From positions 1,617-65,616 of the forward strand of contig DASPMO010000103.1 in the NCBI GenBank assembly GCA_035627015.1: 64,000 nt of DNA. Direction: 5' to 3'. This document shows, piece by piece, positions 1,374 to 9,555 of the stretch; position 1 is the stretch's first letter, and each line of letters starts with the position of its first letter. The translations under genes and the position numbers were made by a program. The notes below the pieces were generated by a model. The model saw only the letters and a list, made by a program, of their open reading frames with translations, made no database searches and was not told the DNA's origin. Origin of the DNA: Thermoanaerobaculia bacterium. Its GTDB lineage: Bacteria; Acidobacteriota; Thermoanaerobaculia; Gp7-AA8.

Positions 1374-3836
<2,463 letters not shown>

Positions 3837-3838
3837 AC

Positions 3839-3893
3839 GTAGGGCGGGCTTCAGCCCGCCTCCCCCGGGGGGGCGGGCTGAAGCCCGCCCTAC
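3839..3893. repeat. REP-type palindromic element (two inverted GTAGGGCGGGCTTCAGCCCGCC arms); likely bidirectional terminator between lon and the convergent hydrolase gene
   Basis: gtagggcgggcttcagcccgcc-tcccccgggg-ggcgggctgaagcccgccctac. Each arm is itself a GGCGGGC/GCCCGCC hairpin. The same 22-mer recurs at 16802, 24183, 28680 and 33505, with variants at 43135 and 50058. Confidence 0.85.
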
Positions 3894-5206
3894 ATCCCGC
3901 CCAGCAGCTTCTCGACCCGCGCCTTCAACCCATCCGTATCCACCCCCGTCGCGAGCGCGCGCTCGGCGAGCGTCTTCGCGCGCGCCGGATCCCGTCCGGC
4001 GATGTGCTCGGCGACGAGATAGTTGCTCCACGCGTTCATCCATTTCGGTTTCTCGCGCGTGCTGGCGGCGATCGACTCGAAGAGGGCGAGCGCGCGTGCC
4101 GAGTCGGGACCGTTGATGCGCAGCGACGGACGCACGTTGCCGTACAGCATGGCCAGGTCGAACTGGATGTGCAGGTCCTGCGGAAAGGCGGCGATGAGGC
4201 GCTCGCCCGCGGCGCGGTCGCCGTACAGGCGCATCCGGTCCTGGTCGCTGACGACGGGCTCGCCGACGTCGCCGAGCCAGGTGCGCAGGAAATCGGCGGC
4301 GATGGGATAGAGCAGGACGTTCGACGCGCCCCGCTGCGGCGAGACGAGCAGGTCGCTGTTGGCGAGCAGCACCAGCGCCAGCCCGCGCGACGGCACTTTG
4401 ACGAGGAGGCCGGAGAACGCATCCGGCCACCAGCTCGTGTGCCACACGACGCGCTCGCCGGCCACGGTCTGCGTGAACCATCCGAGACCGTAAGGGAAGC
4501 CCGGGTAGGCGGGTGTCCAGGCGCGTTCTCTGGCGGAGGCCGAAAGCAGCGTCCCGTCATCGAGGGCGATGCTGTAGCGCGCGAGGTCCGTGACCGTCGA
4601 GGAAAGCCCGGACGAGGAGTGCAGCGCCAGCGGCGGCAGCTTCGACTCCACTACCGCGCCGTTTTCGTCGATCCGATGCGGCGTCGCCAGTCCGCCAGTT
4701 TCGCCGCCGATCGTGCGGTGCAACGCCGCCGGTCTCAGCACGCGCTGGTCCAGCAGCGCCGCGAAGCTCTCCTTCGTCGCCGCCTCGACGACGTTGTCGA
4801 GCCAGTTGAAGCGGGTGCTGTACACGAAGCGCGTCCCCGGCACTCCTTCGGACGTATGCGACAGCACATGCCGGATGCGCACCTCCGCCGGCACCTGCCA
4901 GTCGACGTACGGCTGCACCGGCGCATCGAGGTCGAGCTTCCTTTCCTCCGCCAGCTGCAGCATGAGCGTGGAGGTGAAGGTCTTGGTGATCGAGCCGATC
5001 GGATAGAGCGTGTCGGCCGTCGACGTGCCGAAGCCGCGGGCCATGACCAGCCTGCCGTCGTCCACCACGGCGACGGAGAGGCCGGGGATGCGCAGCTCCG
5101 CGCGTTGCGCCTCCACGCGCCGCGCGAAGTTGTCGATGGCCGGCCGCGCGTGGCGACAGCCCGCAAGGGCGAGCAGGGCGGCGAGTGCGAGTGCGATCGG
5201 TCTCAT
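3890..5206 (-). CDS. Serine hydrolase of the beta-lactamase / penicillin-binding (class C-like) family with a helical repeat C-terminal extension; lipoprotein signal
   Basis: N-terminus MRPIALALAALLALAGC (lipobox). It has the S-x-x-K active-site motif SITKTF and YSTRFNW-type family context. Confidence 0.8.
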   Translation of the reverse strand: MRPIALALAALLALAGCRHARPAIDNFARRVEAQRAELRIPGLSVAVVDDGRLVMARGFGTSTADTLYPIGSITKTFTSTLMLQLAEERKLDLDAPVQPYVDWQVPAEVRIRHVLSHTSEGVPGTRFVYSTRFNWLDNVVEAATKESFAALLDQRVLRPAALHRTIGGETGGLATPHRIDENGAVVESKLPPLALHSSSGLSSTVTDLARYSIALDDGTLLSASARERAWTPAYPGFPYGLGWFTQTVAGERVVWHTSWWPDAFSGLLVKVPSRGLALVLLANSDLLVSPQRGASNVLLYPIAADFLRTWLGDVGEPVVSDQDRMRLYGDRAAGERLIAAFPQDLHIQFDLAMLYGNVRPSLRINGPDSARALALFESIAASTREKPKWMNAWSNYLVAEHIAGRDPARAKTLAERALATGVDTDGLKARVEKLLGGM

Positions 5207-5639
5207 ATCCTCTCATACCGCCACAGACGCCGAAAGGTTCATGTACGCTGATCCATGCGCACGTTCACGCCGTCGGCTACATCTAGGGAACGGACGGATT
5301 CCCATCGTCGAATATGCCGACGAATGTCGTCACGAACATCCTCAGTCCGCTGGCGGGACTGGAGAACTTCGAGCGCGTCGACCTGCTGCGCATCAACGAC
5401 GGGCGCGCATCCCGGCCGCGCGCTGCTCGCGTTCACCCTCGGATCGACGTGGAGCATGGCCAACGTCAGCGGCGGCATCACCGGCTCGCCCACTCCGACC
5501 GTCTCCGGCCCGCTCGTGCGCGGAACCGCCGGTGCTCTGTTCTGGTACAACGGGACGGTCTTCGCGTCGATGGGAGGATGGTTCGACTGACGGCGCGTGG
5601 GGGTAGGGATTTGCGTCTGGTGCAACACTCCTGTAGTGC

Positions 5640-6233
5640 GTGCCTCCCTTGAAGATCTTCATCAGCCACTCACACGACGAAGAATGGCTCGCCGAGATGA
5701 TCGCGGCGGAACTGCAGAAGATCGACGTCGATCCGTTTTACTACAAGCGAAACGAGACCGGCACGCCGATCACCAGCGACGTTCGCGCGAAGCTGAACGA
5801 CTGTGACGAGTTCCTGATCCTGTTGACCCCCACGTCGATCTGGAGTCACTGGGTTCTGTACGAGCTGTCGGTCGCGCACTACCTCGGCAAGGCGATTCGC
5901 CCGTTCTCGATGTATCTCAGCGAACAGGAGATCCCGCCCATGGTGCGCGATCTGGTGCGCCGGCCAATGGGGGAGATTCGCCACTACTACGACGAAGTGC
6001 GAGGACGCGTAGCGAAGGCCTTCGCTGACGGAATGGCGCTGGGGATTGCGCCCAATGCACCGCGGCCGATGCAGGTCGGCGCCGATGATCCGTCACAACT
6101 GAAAGACCAAGTCCACAAGATCGTACTTGGCGACGTGACCGCCGCCGCGGAGACGCCTCCATCACCGGAACCACGCTCGCCGAAGCCGGCGAAGCGTGGC
6201 GCCAGAAAACCATCGCGTCGCAAACCGAGATGA
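5640..6233 (+). CDS. Standalone TIR-domain protein (TIR_2-like) with a basic Pro/Lys/Arg-rich tail
   Basis: KIFISHSHDEEWLAEMIAAEL ... CDEFLILLTPTSIWSHWVLYELSVAHYLGKAIRPF matches the bacterial TIR pattern, with a conserved W-x-x-E glutamate. The start is GTG at 5640, or TTG at 5649. It has no other domain. Confidence 0.75.
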   Translation: MPPLKIFISHSHDEEWLAEMIAAELQKIDVDPFYYKRNETGTPITSDVRAKLNDCDEFLILLTPTSIWSHWVLYELSVAHYLGKAIRPFSMYLSEQEIPPMVRDLVRRPMGEIRHYYDEVRGRVAKAFADGMALGIAPNAPRPMQVGADDPSQLKDQVHKIVLGDVTAAAETPPSPEPRSPKPAKRGARKPSRRKPR

Positions 6234-6236
6234 GCC

Positions 6237-7466
6237 ATGACCCAATCCGTCGATCTTCTCCTGCGTAATCCTTCCGAGTATCCCCGCGCGGGCCTTGTGG
6301 TCCGCCAGTGGAAGCCGGTGGCGAAAGCGCTGGGCGTGCGTGGTGCACGCTCCGCGACGGTCGCCCGGCTCCTCGATCCCACCAACCCGAAGGGTGCCAC
6401 GGTGGATCTCGCCGCGCAGGTGGACCGGCTGGTTCCGCACGATCGCTCGCACGACCAGCTCGTGTTCAAACTGGACTCACCGATCCCCGGAGGTGACGAG
6501 CACTACCGGGCCGTTTCCGGGAAGGTGCGGGTGACGGCGGCGCAAAGCAATGCACAGCCGTACGGAGCAACCGTGCAGCGATACCCCACCGGTGTGAAGC
6601 TGATCAATCAGCATCTCGAAGTATGGCTCAACACGAGCGCCACGAAATACGCTCACCAGCCCCAGGACCAGTTCTACGGCGGGGCGGTCACGAGCGTGAT
6701 CCTGCAGAAGGCCTCCTTCCCGCCCTTCACCGACAGGCTCGAGTGTGTCGACGCCATCGAGTCCCGCGCCGGCTTCTGGCCTCACCCGGAAGCGCGAGCC
6801 ATGCAGATCGATCGCATTCACCTGGTGAGGCCGCCCTGGGACGAGCGGCGCAGCGTCGATTTCTTTCCCTTCCGCGAGCCGTGGACCCTCGTCAGCGACT
6901 CCACGGGTCCGGTCCGTGCAGTCGCTACCATCATGTCGGCACCGTTCGAGCTTCGGTGCAAAGAAGCCGGCGGCAAGAGCGATCACGTCTTCGAGTGCAA
7001 CGTATATCGCACCCTCAGCCTTTACGATGATGTCGACTGGATTGGCGACGAGATCTGGGTGAATGCACGCGACATCGATACTGGCAAAACGCAGCGTCTC
7101 TGGTTCACGGCTCGGTTCTTCATGATGGTGCAGTTCACCCAGGATCCGGAGCTTTTCAAATATCCCGATCACCCCGGCTGGTTCTCTCTGACTCCTCCCG
7201 ACAAACCGAGCAGCGACCCCAGGCTCGGTTACGCCTTCGCGACGGACGCGCAGTCCGGCGCGATCTGGAGTCCGCCGCTCGATTACCATGATGAGATGAC
7301 GAAACCGCGTGCGTTTTCGTGGGAGCTCGGCACGTCGCGCACCGTGCACTGCGTGCACAAGTTTCGCTGCATGACCAACGCGCTGGAAATGGGGCACGAA
7401 GCCGGGTGGCTGTGGTACGACTTGGTTTTCAAGCGCATTCGAGGCACACTGGCGGGTGAGAAGTGA
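6237..7466 (+). CDS. Hypothetical 409-aa soluble protein, second gene of the TIR cassette
   Basis: The ATG lies 3 nt after the TIR gene stop. It is a long clean ORF with no TM segments and no motif I can assign. Confidence 0.6.
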   Translation: MTQSVDLLLRNPSEYPRAGLVVRQWKPVAKALGVRGARSATVARLLDPTNPKGATVDLAAQVDRLVPHDRSHDQLVFKLDSPIPGGDEHYRAVSGKVRVTAAQSNAQPYGATVQRYPTGVKLINQHLEVWLNTSATKYAHQPQDQFYGGAVTSVILQKASFPPFTDRLECVDAIESRAGFWPHPEARAMQIDRIHLVRPPWDERRSVDFFPFREPWTLVSDSTGPVRAVATIMSAPFELRCKEAGGKSDHVFECNVYRTLSLYDDVDWIGDEIWVNARDIDTGKTQRLWFTARFFMMVQFTQDPELFKYPDHPGWFSLTPPDKPSSDPRLGYAFATDAQSGAIWSPPLDYHDEMTKPRAFSWELGTSRTVHCVHKFRCMTNALEMGHEAGWLWYDLVFKRIRGTLAGEK

Positions 7467-7945
7467 GCGCGTCCATCACGCTTCCCGACGAAATCGCACT
7501 CCCTGAGAACGTGGAGAGCCTTGCCGTGGCCGTGGTGGAGAAGGTCGGCGTCGCCGACGTTATCGCCCAGATGGCGGATCAGATCTTCGCCAAAATCGAA
7601 GCCTGCGAGGCGTTCTCCAGCGGCTCGCAGAATGCGGACGCCTTTTTCTTTGCCACCAGTCTTCCGGTCGCCAACGCGGTTATCCACCGCACGACCCCGG
7701 ATCGTCTGACGCGCGCGCTTCGCTGGTCGAGTGAACGGTGGCCGGCCGAAGACGATCCGGCCGTGCCGCTCGCCACCTGGACTCTCATCTACATCATCTC
7801 TGAGGGGTGGAAACGCTACAGCAAGATCGCGGAGAAGAAGGTGCTGTGGGATCGGATTCTCGCGCACGTGGCTGCATTGGCGGAAGAGCCGAGTCCCGCC
7901 ACCGCCGCGCAGCACGTAGTTACCGCACCAGCACCGCCGCGCTGA
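7463..7945 (+). CDS. Hypothetical 160-aa acidic protein, third gene of the TIR cassette
   Basis: The GTG start overlaps the upstream stop (GTGA), which suggests translational coupling. No recognisable motif. Confidence 0.5.
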   Translation: MSASITLPDEIALPENVESLAVAVVEKVGVADVIAQMADQIFAKIEACEAFSSGSQNADAFFFATSLPVANAVIHRTTPDRLTRALRWSSERWPAEDDPAVPLATWTLIYIISEGWKRYSKIAEKKVLWDRILAHVAALAEEPSPATAAQHVVTAPAPPR

Positions 7946-7949
7946 CCTT

Positions 7950-8330
7950 CGACACCCGCCGCCCCTCCACCCGCAGCGCGCTGATGTAGCGTCCGCAGAG
8001 GTCGCCCGCGAATTCGACGGATCGGCCGTGATGCGCGTGACGTTGCGCGCGGCGTCGTACGCGGCGTAGAAGACGCGCGGCGTCAGCGGAACGCCGGCGT
8101 CGGATGAAGGTCCGTCCAGTCCCCATTCGATGTCGCCGGCGCGGTTGCCGGTCAGGATGGCGTTGTCGAGGGTGACCGTGGCGCGGCGATGAGCGAGCTG
8201 CGCACGGTGAGGTCGCCGCCGGTGGGGCCGATGAAGATCCCGCTCGCCCCGACAGGCAGCGACCGGACGGGCGGACCACCGAACGGATCGTCAGCGCGCA
8301 GGCGGTGATGACCGGCAGTGGAGAACGTCG
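7950..8330 (-). pseudogene. Possible remnant of a parallel beta-helix repeat protein gene (frameshifted fragments)
   Basis: Two different minus-strand frames give beta-helix-like peptides: GIFIGPTGGDLTVRSSLIA and ATVTLDNAILTGNRAGDIEWG. No intact ORF with a plausible start exists. Confidence 0.25.
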
Positions 8331-8912
8331 TCAGATGCGCGCGACGAGCTTCTGCGCCGTCGGCAGGAGCATCGCGCCGAGCGCGACTTTGATCGCGTCG
8401 GCGAGGACGAACGGCGCCACGCCGGCGGTGAATGCGTACGCGGGCGTCGTCAGGATGGCCAGCCACGACCAGCCGCCGAGGTAGATCACGCCGAGGGCCA
8501 GGAGCATGCCGCTGGTCGCGCGGAGGATCGTCGATCCCCAGCCGCGCTCGGAGACGAAGCCCGCCACCCAGGCAGCGAACGGATACGAGTAGAGGTAGCC
8601 GGCGGTCGCGCCGAGGAGCCAGGCCGGGCCGCCGTGGCCCTGCGCGAAGACCGGCAGTCCGCTGAAGCCTTCGAGGAGATAAAGCGCCGCGGCGGCCGCG
8701 CCCCGCGTCGAGCCGAGACACACCCCGACGAGGATCACGGCCAGCGGCTGCAGCGTCAGCGGCACCGGCGTGAACGGCATCGGGATGGCAATCTGTGCGG
8801 CGATGGCAATGAACAGACTCGCCCCGATCACGAGCAGCATGTTCGCGGCGGCACGGCCGCGCACGAGGCGATCGAGCACGACGGCGGGAATGGTCATCGC
8901 TTTTTCTCTCAT
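8331..8912 (-). CDS. bioY: Biotin transporter BioY (ECF S-component)
   Basis: AAQIAIPMPFTPVPLTLQPLAVILVGVCLG ... GGPAWLLGATAGYLYSYPFAAWVAGF is typical BioY. The start is taken at MREKAM (8912; alternative 8897), because the longer ORF to 9056 adds a non-BioY extension. Confidence 0.85.
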   Translation of the reverse strand: MREKAMTIPAVVLDRLVRGRAAANMLLVIGASLFIAIAAQIAIPMPFTPVPLTLQPLAVILVGVCLGSTRGAAAAALYLLEGFSGLPVFAQGHGGPAWLLGATAGYLYSYPFAAWVAGFVSERGWGSTILRATSGMLLALGVIYLGGWSWLAILTTPAYAFTAGVAPFVLADAIKVALGAMLLPTAQKLVARI

Positions 8913-8943
8913 GGCGGGTGAGAAGATACCATCCGGAGAAACT

Positions 8944-9555
8944 ATGGTGAAACCGATCATTGTCGCGCTCGCCGCCGTACTCCTGTTCGGCTGCAGCAAA
9001 CCGGAGCCGCTGACCGCGGCCAAGGCGCAGGAGATCATCGGCGGCTGGTCGTTCAAGCGCGAGCCGGTGTACGCCGAGGTGCCGCAGAAGGTGTGGTGGA
9101 CGCCGAAGGCGCCGAAGGACGACTACGACGAGAAGGCGCTGCGCACCCTGCGCAATCTCGAGCGCGCGGGACTCGTGACGGTGACGGAATCGGACGTGAC
9201 CGCCGACTCGGCGACGTACGTGGCCAAGGTGACGAAGAAAGGCTTTCCGATCCTCGGCACCGCCCCCAGCGCCCGCGGCCCCGTCTACCGCGCGCGCATC
9301 TGCGAGAAGCGCTACGACGGCATCCGCAATTTCGTCCGTCACCCGACGGAGGAGACGGTCGGTCACGCGGAGCTGGTGTGGCACTACGCGAACCCGAACG
9401 AGCTCTATCCGCTGTTCGAGACGAAGATCAACAAGCCGGTGAACCAGCCCTTCGTCTCGCACGTGTCGTTCTGGTACGACAAGCACCAGTGGCGGTTCGA
9501 GGTGAACGTCAGGAAGGTCGCGTCATCCGCCGCAGCCCTTCCGCTCCCGCGATGA
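8944..9555 (+). CDS. Hypothetical lipoprotein
   Basis: MVKPIIVALAAVLLFGCSKPEP has a signal peptide and lipobox. This is an internal start of ORF 8770..9555, divergent from bioY. Confidence 0.55.
   Translation: MVKPIIVALAAVLLFGCSKPEPLTAAKAQEIIGGWSFKREPVYAEVPQKVWWTPKAPKDDYDEKALRTLRNLERAGLVTVTESDVTADSATYVAKVTKKGFPILGTAPSARGPVYRARICEKRYDGIRNFVRHPTEETVGHAELVWHYANPNELYPLFETKINKPVNQPFVSHVSFWYDKHQWRFEVNVRKVASSAAALPLPR

What the first reader, a model, noticed from the sequence alone, without database searches (positions are those of the whole stretch)
5640..7945. Three-gene cassette led by a standalone TIR protein with two domain-less partners: candidate novel Thoeris-like defence system
Seen in the sequence: three same-strand ORFs are packed with a 3-nt gap and a GTGA start/stop overlap, so they look like one operon. 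Gene 1 is a ~200-aa TIR-only protein (IFISHSHDEEW ... CDEFLILLTPTS..SHWVLYELSVAHYLGKAIRPF). It retains the W-x-x-E glutamate position that is catalytic in bacterial NADase TIR domains, and it ends in a basic Pro/Lys/Arg tail. Gene 2 (409 aa, soluble) and gene 3 (160 aa, acidic) match nothing I can recognise. The cassette looks AT-richer than its flanks by eye. It sits between a hydrolase gene and a decayed beta-helix gene fragment, which suggests acquisition. Established knowledge: bacterial TIR proteins generate nucleotide signals or deplete NAD in Thoeris (ThsB + ThsA SIR2/Macro), SPARTA (TIR-APAZ + short pAgo), CBASS/Pycsar effectors and some Avs. None of those partner domains (SIR2, Macro, SLOG, SAVED, STING, pAgo, STAND NTPase) is visible here. 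Inference: this may be a ThsB-like signal producer paired with a new effector or sensor pair.
Basis: partly seen in the sequence, partly recalled or inferred. Interest (0 to 1): 0.75.

Follow-up and report, generated by a model that had tools for sequence, protein, structure and literature searches.

The report
Swappable NADase cassette with new partners
A three-gene operon pairs a TIR (NAD-cleaving) protein with two uncharacterised proteins; related genomes swap the TIR for other killing modules and carry very different versions of the operon at one chromosomal spot, the pattern of an undescribed anti-phage or other conflict system, though no experiment has tested it.

Summary
Three tightly coupled same-strand genes lie at 5640-7945: TIR (197 aa), a 409-aa protein (g2) and a 160-aa acidic protein (g3). 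The cassette is AT-richer than its flanks and is bracketed by gene remnants.

- **g2:** a confident all-beta model resembling the C-terminal domains of GH38 mannosidases and galactose mutarotase. No Pfam, PADLOC, NCBIfam or PHROGs model matches it.
- **g3:** a helical bundle with no structural match.
- **Core pair:** g2 and g3 recur together in every related Acidobacteriota locus examined and co-vary.
- **Variable slot:** the gene upstream of g2 is TIR, DUF4062/NIR (a TIR-like NADase shown in 2026 preprints to be an anti-phage effector) or a membrane protein.
- **Fusions:** all nine of the longest g2 relatives tested carry TIR fused to g2.
- **Locus behaviour:** in Thermoanaerobaculia the cassette nearly always sits between lon and bioY. 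A genome with 91% identical flanks has a g2 only 42-46% identical and no TIR.

I read this as a new NADase-effector conflict module in which TIR is the effector and g2-g3 the sensor or regulator. It is not a Thoeris-like signal producer.

Caveats: nothing is tested experimentally, the neighbourhood is not a defence island, and cyanobacterial g2 relatives stand alone, several beside fermentation genes.

The parts
5640..6233 (+). g1: standalone TIR protein (197 aa). The TIR domain spans roughly residues 4-135; a disordered Pro/Lys/Arg-rich tail follows.
   Evidence: Pfam TIR_2 at 5.9e-10, above the gathering score. Weak ThsB and SAVED-TIR PADLOC hits. Aligns to TLR TIR domains. Only nine homologues in 5.8 billion proteins, all TIR_2.
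5862..5864 (+). Codon of Glu75, the putative catalytic glutamate of the TIR NADase (W71-V-L-Y-E75).
   Evidence: Aligned to the conserved 'YEL' Glu of TIR domains. Conserved in the TIRs of L001, L007, L009, L012 and L016 and in all nine TIR-g2 fusions. Catalytic activity is inferred, not tested.
6057..6230 (+). Basic tail of g1 (residues 140-197, pI 10.6), lying immediately before g2.
   Evidence: An equivalent K/R/P-rich tail ends whichever protein precedes g2 in other loci (TIR, DUF4062-like, or the 147/153-aa proteins). Several TIR-g2 fusions have a basic linker in the same position. A role as tether to g2 or g3 is inferred.
6237..7466 (+). g2: 409-aa all-beta protein, the conserved core of the module. 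It has an N-terminal beta-sandwich followed by a galactose-mutarotase-like supersandwich. The family is uncharacterised.
   Evidence: AF2 pLDDT 91.5, pTM 0.91. Foldseek matches GH38 alpha-mannosidase C-terminal domains (E 2e-8), PL26 lyase, LacZ and galactose mutarotase. No sequence-family hits. 34 close relatives and 255 representative relatives.
6801..6842 (+). Most conserved g2 motif, MQIDRIHLVRPPWD (residues 189-202). Other conserved blocks: YPDHPGW 309-315, YAFATD 332-337, WxPPL 344-348.
   Evidence: Column-entropy scan of alignment A3 and its invariant columns. Q190 and R187 remain nearly invariant across the wide family. A role as a ligand or active-site pocket is inferred.
7463..7945 (+). 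g3: 160-aa acidic helical-bundle protein, translationally coupled to g2.
   Evidence: AF2 pLDDT 81, helices spanning residues 15-140. No PDB fold match, best E above 1. Homologues follow g2 in every acidobacterial locus whose sequence was compared. Its identity co-varies with that of g2 (rho 0.53, p 0.004). A g3 domain follows a g2 paralogue in Blastocatellia (hhalign 98%, E 3e-14).
5281..5587 (+). Left border scar: two fragments of a 664-aa beta-propeller gene (residues 45-97 and 605-664) that is intact in the close relative L004.
   Evidence: tblastn and blastn.
7941..8262 (-). Right border scar: three frame-shifted fragments of a 463-aa beta-helix gene (residues 308-457) that is intact in L004.
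   Evidence: tblastn and blastn.

Best explanation
This is a previously undescribed three-gene conflict module, most likely anti-phage abortive infection. The TIR protein is the NAD+-cleaving effector. The g2-g3 pair is the conserved, co-evolving sensor/regulator core.

Proposed mechanism:
- g2 (beta-sandwich plus mutarotase-like supersandwich) and g3 (helical bundle) form a complex. This is inferred from the conserved start/stop overlap and their co-variation.
- The TIR protein is held to this complex, perhaps through its basic tail. This is inferred from the covalent TIR-g2 fusions in relatives.
- Recognition of an invader-derived cue by g2/g3 lets the TIR domains assemble into the active oligomer, and NAD+ is depleted.

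Shown here: gene structure, TIR identity, fold of g2, g2-g3 linkage, TIR/NIR/membrane-protein swapping, TIR-g2 fusions, and hypervariability at a fixed locus.

Inferred: protein complexes, NADase activity, the trigger, and the defence phenotype.
For: 1. **Module integrity.** A g2-g3 pair preceded by a variable gene recurs in every acidobacterial locus examined, usually with start/stop overlaps.
2. **Effector swapping.** The slot upstream of g2 holds one of the following:
   - TIR in about nine contexts.
   - DUF4062-like proteins in four. All four hit PF13271 (best E 3e-6). The three scanned against PADLOC hit the N-terminus of candidate PDC-S60 at 1e-33 to 1e-38.
   - Signal-peptide/transmembrane proteins in two.
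   DUF4062/NIR is an experimentally shown NAD+-hydrolysing anti-phage effector (bioRxiv 10.64898/2026.05.01.722283 and 10.64898/2026.09.04.749371).
3. **Fusions.** All nine of the longest g2 relatives tested (572-622 aa) carry an N-terminal TIR (alignment). The TIR of P0128 matches the PADLOC 'TIR-TM' model at 6e-48. The best PADLOC hits of the L016 TIR (PDC-S66, SAVED-TIR, Aga TIR) score above its ThsB hits.
4. **Diversification decoupled from the genome.**
   - Lon is 92-100% identical among loci, but g2 only 42-69% and g3 29-60%.
   - Lon and g2 similarity are uncorrelated (rho -0.01), while g2 and g3 co-vary (rho 0.53, p 0.004).
   - The closest genome (L004) has flanks 91% identical in DNA, yet DNA homology stops at window 5594 and resumes at 7927. 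That span is exactly the cassette.
5. **Atypical composition.** GC3 is 0.76-0.78 against about 0.9 in the flanks.
6. **Off-locus copies.** One sits next to an integrase (L017). Another sits next to a Trypsin-AAA-TPR gene and a Trypco1 gene (L008).
Against: - No experiment exists for any member.
- g2 and g3 match no PADLOC model.
- The neighbours in the window are housekeeping or miscellaneous genes (lon, beta-lactamase-like, bioY, rpiA, ggt), not a defence island.
- The cassette is almost always at the same chromosomal site.
- No g2 relative was found on viral contigs.
- The wider g2 family includes standalone, apparently monocistronic genes in Nostocales and other cyanobacteria. They have no TIR and no conserved neighbour, and several lie beside fermentation genes (hox hydrogenase, pflBA, thiolase/PHB esterase). 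So g2 can work without an NADase and may be an enzyme rather than a sensor.
- The window TIR's own best PADLOC hits are weak ThsB models, so the TIR subtype does not settle effector versus signaller.
Confidence: 0.5

Rival explanations
1. Thoeris-like signalling. The TIR senses infection and makes an ADPR-derived signal. g2 binds the signal through its sugar-binding-type mutarotase-like domain and, with g3, acts as the effector.
For: The window TIR's best PADLOC hits are ThsB models (5.9e-7). A recent survey shows TIRs pairing with about 30 different effectors, some of unknown function (bioRxiv 10.64898/2025.12.03.692087). The g2 fold is a carbohydrate-binding type, and known TIR signals contain ribose-ribose O-glycosidic bonds (same paper). 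g2 has a strongly conserved polar and aromatic core.
Against: The variable element is gene 1 and the constant one is g2-g3, which is the reverse of Thoeris logic. DUF4062/NIR and membrane proteins replace the TIR. TIR is fused directly to g2, which is unusual for a diffusible-signal pair. Neither g2 nor g3 has a recognisable toxic domain.
Confidence: 0.15
2. The module is a lineage-specific metabolic or housekeeping unit, not immunity. g2 is a carbohydrate- or nucleotide-sugar-acting enzyme of the mutarotase-like fold. TIR or DUF4062, both members of an N-ribosyl-hydrolase superfamily, supply or process a ribosyl substrate.
For: The locus is fixed among housekeeping genes. Cyanobacterial g2 relatives are standalone and lie next to pflB/pflA, hoxUYH/hoxW, thiolase/PHB esterase and ATP-grasp/GNAT genes. 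One appears fused to a HoxW-like protease. g2 has enzyme-like invariant polar residues.
Against: Housekeeping genes do not normally differ by more than 50% between genomes whose flanks are 91% identical, nor swap an NADase for a membrane protein. No neighbour is conserved in cyanobacteria; hox genes are nearby in only 2 of 13 distinct loci. GC3 is atypical. The distribution is patchy and the close family is tiny (34 close relatives in 5.8 billion proteins).
Confidence: 0.15
3. The module is a toxin-antitoxin or addiction type cassette, or another intragenomic or inter-bacterial conflict element. The TIR is the toxin and g2 and/or acidic g3 neutralise it, without a dedicated phage sensor.
For: The toxic-domain slot is swappable, a small acidic co-evolving partner is present, the genes are tightly coupled, and alleles are hypervariable at one locus.
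Against: The architecture is unlike known TA pairs: a 409-aa beta-rich protein is the most conserved member. TIR-g2 fusions would covalently link toxin to antitoxin. No secretion or polymorphic-toxin markers were seen in the family scans of g1. This rival also overlaps mechanistically with abortive-infection defence.
Confidence: 0.1

Closest known systems
Swarozyc and Vulcan (DUF4062/NIR NADase fused to an auxiliary or HEAT sensor domain; 2026 preprints)
   Same: An NADase effector of the TIR/TIR-like class is joined to a non-enzymatic sensor module. Some alleles of this cassette use DUF4062 itself in the g1 slot, and relatives fuse TIR to g2. The proposed logic is the same: sensor binding drives NADase assembly, NAD+ depletion and abortive infection.
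   Different: The window has a canonical TIR, not DUF4062. The sensor candidate is a separate beta-supersandwich protein plus a helical partner, neither of which is mentioned in those papers. This is a three-gene operon, not a single protein. No activity or trigger is known here.
Thoeris (types I-XI: ThsB TIR plus a signal-activated effector)
   Same: A standalone TIR protein in a small operon with non-TIR partners, with weak ThsB-model similarity.
   Different: No ThsA, SIR2-SLOG, Macro, caspase or other described Thoeris effector was found. The constant and variable roles are reversed. TIR is fused to its partner in relatives.
SPARTA / short pAgo (TIR-APAZ plus pAgo)
   Same: A TIR NADase effector is attached, fused or in trans, to a sensor complex of two proteins and is activated by assembly. 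The L016 cassette TIR hits Aga TIR-PNTD models (9e-11).
   Different: No APAZ, PIWI or MID domains. g2 has a GH38-C/mutarotase-like fold.
CBASS/Pycsar TIR, TIR-TM and TM effectors
   Same: The same set of interchangeable effector types is seen (TIR or a transmembrane protein). The TIR of the fusion P0128 matches the PADLOC 'TIR-TM' model at 6e-48.
   Different: No CD-NTase or pyrimidine cyclase, and no SAVED or other nucleotide-sensor domain.
GH38 alpha-mannosidase C-terminal domains / galactose mutarotase (fold of g2 only)
   Same: Best structural matches of g2 (2wyi at E 2e-8; 1snz and 4bze at about 5e-4).
   Different: 8-11% identity and TM only 0.34-0.45. No GH38 catalytic N-domain. No sequence-profile match to any solved structure. 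This is fold resemblance only and does not show shared activity.

Membership tests
TIR domain superfamily (g1) | Match to a curated TIR profile above its threshold | tested here: met
   PF13676 TIR_2 at 40.1 bits against a cut-off of 28; PF01582 at 24.0 against 21.3.
TIR domain superfamily (g1) | Conserved catalytic glutamate of NADase TIRs | tested here: met
   E75 aligns with the 'YEL' Glu and is conserved in the six cassette TIRs and the nine fusions. TLR TIRs that are not NADases also keep this Glu, so the result is permissive and not proof.
TIR domain superfamily (g1) | NAD+ cleavage activity | not testable with these tools
   Needs a biochemical assay.
Thoeris | ThsB-type TIR protein | tested here: inconclusive
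   Only weak PADLOC ThsB hits (best 5.9e-7, 27 bits). NCBIfam ThcB4 at 19.6 bits against a cut-off of 220.
Thoeris | Adjacent signal-responsive effector (SIR2-SLOG, Macro-TM, caspase-like, DUF2270, DUF6650 and others) | tested here: not met
   g2 and g3 have no Pfam, PADLOC or NCBIfam hits. The g2 fold is GH38-C/mutarotase-like and g3 is an orphan helical bundle. The full list of 18 putative effectors in Figure 1C of 10.64898/2025.12.03.692087 could not be read as text.
Thoeris | TIR produces a nucleotide signal on infection | not testable with these tools
   Needs LC-MS of infected lysates.
SPARTA / short pAgo-TIR | APAZ domain and a short pAgo partner | tested here: not met
   No APAZ, PIWI or MID hits for the window's three proteins in Pfam or PADLOC.
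CBASS / Pycsar | CD-NTase or cyclase gene in the operon | tested here: not met
   None among g1-g3 or the neighbours.
Avs / NLR-like STAND with TIR effector | STAND NTPase domain | tested here: not met
   No NTPase profile hit in g1, g2 or g3.
Swarozyc / Vulcan / Vesta (NIR systems) | DUF4062/NIR NADase domain | tested here: not met
   The window g1 is canonical TIR with no DUF4062 hit. Sister alleles in L004, L008, L017 and L018 do carry DUF4062-like proteins.
Swarozyc / Vulcan / Vesta (NIR systems) | Described partner (Swz AUX domain, HEAT repeats, or alkaline phosphatase VstB) | tested here: not met
   No HEAT or alkaline phosphatase hit.
GH38 glycoside hydrolase (g2) | N-terminal catalytic alpha/beta domain with metal site; Pfam Glyco_hydro_38 profiles | tested here: not met
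   No Pfam hit. Foldseek aligns only to the beta-rich C-terminal half of proteins of about 900 aa (TMt 0.22-0.25).
Aldose 1-epimerase (g2) | Sequence profile and catalytic His/Glu constellation | tested here: not met
   No Pfam or PDB-sequence hit. Fold match only, at E about 5e-4 and 8-9% identity.

The most novel reading that the evidence does not exclude
g2 defines a new family of mutarotase-fold proteins that bind or process ribose-linked NAD-derived molecules or glycan cues. In Acidobacteriota it has been wired to interchangeable NADase or membrane effectors as an immune sensor. In cyanobacteria the same domain works alone beside fermentation genes (hox, pfl). That would link a sugar or nucleotide-sugar sensing fold to both immunity and dark/anoxic metabolism.
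Probability: 0.12. Interest if true: 0.8.

Novelty: new variant of a known kind. Interest (0 to 1): 0.58.

Why it matters
If confirmed, this adds a new sensor/regulator pair to the growing set of NAD+-depleting immune systems. The pair consists of a mutarotase-like beta-supersandwich protein and a small helical partner.

It would also be a natural example where canonical TIR, DUF4062/NIR and membrane effectors are interchangeable on one chassis.

It comes from Acidobacteriota, a major soil phylum poorly represented in experimental work on bacterial immunity.

The lon-bioY locus would be a clean case of a chromosomal hotspot where alleles of a single system are exchanged between near-identical genomes. 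That is useful for studying how immune diversity is maintained.

The g2 family (about 255 clusters at 50% identity, with no Pfam model) would gain its first functional lead.

Tried and rejected
- **Family scans.** Pfam, PADLOC, NCBIfam and PHROGs scans of g2 and g3 found nothing.
- **PDB sequence searches.** The g2 profile and the DUF4062-like profile found nothing.
- **Structure searches.** The viral library gave nothing meaningful for g2. The PDB gave nothing for g3, best E 1.4.
- **Collection scans.**
  - The wide g2 alignments were too divergent for locus finding.
  - The viral contig scan found no relatives.
  - The metagenome scan gave only three short contigs.
- **Borders of the cassette.** I looked for bounding repeats or att-like sites and for internal promoters and terminators. 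Only short chance-level repeats and background-level terminator hits appeared.
- **A hox-hydrogenase link for g2.** Considered and rejected as a general rule. hox genes are nearby in only 2 of 13 distinct cyanobacterial loci, and no neighbour is conserved.
- **A shared C-terminal domain in all gene-1 variants.** Considered and not supported. Only a compositional basic tail is shared.
- **The small ORF downstream of some cyanobacterial g2 genes.** It is not g3-like.
- **Rfam and tRNA scans of the window.** Both empty.
- **Literature.** No paper combines TIR with a galactose-mutarotase-like or aldose-epimerase partner. The search for a described ORF between hoxH and hoxW was unproductive.
Full report
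**1. The observation**

- g1 at 5640-6233 (197 aa)
- g2 at 6237-7466 (409 aa)
- g3 at 7463-7945 (160 aa)

A 3-nt gap separates g1 from g2, and g2 and g3 share a GTGA stop/start overlap. No promoter-like site lies in 5100-8500, and terminator-like hits are at background level.

g1 passes the Pfam gathering thresholds for TIR_2 and TIR. It aligns to solved TLR TIR domains, with Glu75 in the conserved 'YEL' position. Its last 58 residues are a Pro/Lys/Arg-rich tail with pI 10.6. g3 is acidic, with pI 5.0.

g2 and g3 match nothing in Pfam, PADLOC, NCBIfam or PHROGs.

The cassette is compositionally distinct. GC is 0.61-0.64 and GC3 is 0.76-0.78, against GC3 of 0.885-0.94 in the flanking genes.

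The flank descriptions are also right:
- The upstream gene belongs to the beta-lactamase family.
- 7941-8262 (minus strand) holds three frame-shifted pieces of a beta-helix gene that is intact in a close relative.
- In addition, 5281-5587 holds two pieces of a beta-propeller gene that has lost its interior.

**2. What the partners are**

*g2.*
- With an alignment of 32 homologues, g2 gives a confident AlphaFold2 model (pLDDT 91.5, pTM 0.91). It is almost entirely beta.
- Its best matches among solved structures are the beta-rich C-terminal halves of GH38 alpha-mannosidases (E 2e-8), PL26 rhamnogalacturonan lyase, LacZ and galactose mutarotase.
- g2 is therefore a beta-sandwich followed by a mutarotase-like supersandwich, without any glycosidase catalytic domain.
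- Identity to these matches is 8-11% and TM-scores are modest. This is a fold assignment only.
- The most conserved motifs are MQIDRIHLVRPPWD (189-202), YPDHPGW, YAFATD and WxPPL. Variable segments lie at 32-56, 102-113, 137-168, 280-284 and 319-328.

*g3.* It models as a helical bundle (pLDDT 81) with no structural neighbour.

**3. Conservation and linkage**

The close families are tiny: 34 g2, 10 g3 and 9 g1 sequences in 5.8 billion proteins. Those with a source name are from Thermoanaerobaculia MAGs.

In the acidobacterial loci whose DNA could be compared, a g3 homologue follows g2, often with a 4-nt overlap. The exceptions are the two metagenome fragments cut off by contig ends.

The gene in front of g2 varies:
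- TIR in the window, L001, L007, L009, L012, L016 and the P0030 contig. The P0003 and P0007 contigs probably carry it too, judged from matching contig lengths.
- DUF4062-like proteins in L008, L017 and L018, and divergently oriented in L004.
- A signal-peptide/transmembrane protein in L002 and L006.

All four DUF4062-like proteins hit PF13271 (best E 3e-6). The three scanned against PADLOC match the N-terminus of candidate PDC-S60 at 1e-33 to 1e-38.

Whatever protein precedes g2, except the membrane type, ends in a basic K/R/P tail.

**4. The wider g2 family**

A profile search of 1.84 billion representatives found 255 relatives.
- All nine of the longest relatives tested (572-622 aa) carry an N-terminal TIR fused to g2. 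Several have a basic linker, and the catalytic Glu is conserved.
- Those that could be placed come from Blastocatellia and Pyrinomonadaceae.
- One Blastocatellia locus encodes three linked genes:
  - a g2 paralogue;
  - an overlapping 405-aa protein whose C-terminus is a g3 domain (hhalign 98%, E 3e-14);
  - a TIR-g2 fusion.
- The three components are therefore linked across classes of Acidobacteriota, by gene order and by fusion.

**5. Evolutionary behaviour**

In Thermoanaerobaculia the cassette almost always sits between lon and bioY. It evolves independently of that backbone:
- Lon is 92-100% identical among loci, while g2 is 42-69% and g3 is 29-60%.
- Lon and g2 similarities are uncorrelated (rho -0.01), while g2 and g3 co-vary (rho 0.53, p 0.004).

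The nearest genome, L004, shows this most clearly:
- Its flanks are 91% identical in DNA, and the Lon C-terminal 401 residues are identical.
- DNA homology stops at window 5594 and resumes at 7927.
- The cassette inside has a g2 only 42-46% identical.
- It has no TIR. Instead it carries a DUF4062 gene plus a 153-aa basic-tail gene.

The three-gene unit is therefore the unit of replacement, and the scars on both sides fit recombination or deletion at its borders.

Two copies lie elsewhere: one beside an integrase (L017), one beside a Trypsin-AAA-TPR gene and a Trypco1 gene (L008).

**6. Mechanism**

DUF4062/NIR was shown in 2026 preprints to be a TIR-like NADase that acts as the effector of several anti-phage systems:
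- Swarozyc, activated by phage portal through an auxiliary domain
- Vulcan, NIR fused to HEAT repeats
- Vesta
- an Avs2 protein

Three features mark gene 1 as the effector slot and g2-g3 as the sensor/regulator chassis:
- TIR, NIR and a membrane protein are interchangeable in front of a constant g2-g3.
- TIR is covalently fused to g2 in relatives.
- The fusion and L016 TIRs score best against TIR models other than ThsB: TIR-TM at 6e-48, and PDC-S66, SAVED-TIR and Aga TIR.

This is the opposite polarity to Thoeris, where the TIR is constant and effectors vary.

My best explanation is a new NAD+-depleting abortive-infection-type module, with confidence about 0.5. In it, g2-g3 recognises a cue and licenses TIR assembly. 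The complex, the activity, the trigger and the phenotype are all inferred.

**7. Reasons for caution**

- The neighbourhood is not a defence island, and no viral copy was found.
- The g2 family also includes standalone, apparently monocistronic genes in Nostocales and other cyanobacteria (about 30% identity to the window g2). They have no TIR and no conserved neighbour.
- Several of these lie beside fermentation genes:
  - between pflB and pflA (L022);
  - after hoxUYH and before hoxW (L023);
  - before hoxH (L021);
  - beside thiolase and a PHB esterase (L019, L020).
- One cyanobacterial relative appears fused to a HoxW-like protease.
- g2 can therefore function without an NADase and might be an enzyme or small-molecule binder. 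This keeps the metabolic rival and the Thoeris-like rival (g2 binding a ribose-linked signal) alive at about 0.15 each.

**8. Comparison with known systems, and novelty**

The cassette fails the defining partner tests for Thoeris, SPARTA, CBASS/Pycsar, Avs and the named NIR systems (see the membership table). It most resembles Swarozyc, Vulcan and SPARTA in logic.

Text searches found no paper linking TIR to a mutarotase-like partner. The 2025 Thoeris survey does not mention such a partner in its text, although its figure of putative effectors could not be read.

I class the cassette as a new variant of a known kind: an NADase-effector conflict system with a new sensor pair. Interest is moderate to high for the bacterial-immunity field, tempered by the lack of any functional data.

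Noticed in passing
window 5281-5587 (+): Two fragments (residues 45-97 and 605-664) of a 664-aa PLL-type beta-propeller gene that is intact in the close relative L004. The interior of the gene has been deleted just upstream of the cassette.
   Followed up: yes
L019-L032 (cyanobacterial loci), P0096/P0202: Standalone g2 homologues in Nostocales and other cyanobacteria often lie beside fermentation or anoxic-metabolism genes: between pflB and pflA (L022), after hoxUYH and before hoxW (L023), before hoxH (L021), and beside thiolase and a PHB esterase (L019, L020). One appears fused to a HoxW-like hydrogenase maturation protease. No single neighbour is conserved.
   Followed up: partly
L013 4251-8758 (Blastocatellia MAG): A compound locus: a g2 paralogue (448 aa), an overlapping 405-aa protein with an Ala/Lys-rich coiled-coil N-terminus and a C-terminal g3 domain, then a TIR-g2 fusion (585 aa). 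A second TIR-g2 fusion (P0130) is encoded elsewhere on the same 5.7-Mb contig.
   Followed up: partly
L016 4900-6004 and L004 4694-5997: Where a separate 147/153-aa protein carries the basic tail, the TIR (L016) or DUF4062 (L004) protein instead ends in an extra beta-rich region of about 60 aa that looks SH3-like. This suggests a four-gene variant of the module. The domain was not identified.
   Followed up: no
L008 1-2734 and 8940-13194; L017 4307-5200; L018 9158-10462: The two off-locus cassette copies sit beside other conflict or mobility genes: a Trypsin-AAA_22-TPR gene plus a Trypco1 gene, an 1104-aa DUF6765-like gene and an HTH-TPR-BTAD regulator (L008), and a tyrosine recombinase (L017). 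In L018, where the cassette is at the lon-bioY site, a group II intron reverse transcriptase lies just beyond bioY.
   Followed up: no
lon-bioY interval in L001, L002, L004, L007, L016: The interval between lon and bioY is a variable region beyond the cassette itself. Different genomes carry TetR regulators, glyoxalase, PhzF, DinB, M28 peptidase, MMPL, DUF6624, beta-propeller and beta-helix genes there.
   Followed up: partly
window 2309-5251 (+), 3282-4481 (-), 8152-9486 (-) and others: Very long overlapping ORFs (up to 980 aa) run across or antisense to real genes. This is typical high-GC ORF noise and not evidence of genes.
   Followed up: no
contig of P0034 (no DNA available): The most divergent close g2 homologue (31% identity) is preceded by an overlapping 407-aa protein with no Pfam hit and followed by a 130-aa gene. 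Whether the upstream gene is another g2 paralogue or a new effector could not be checked.
   Followed up: no
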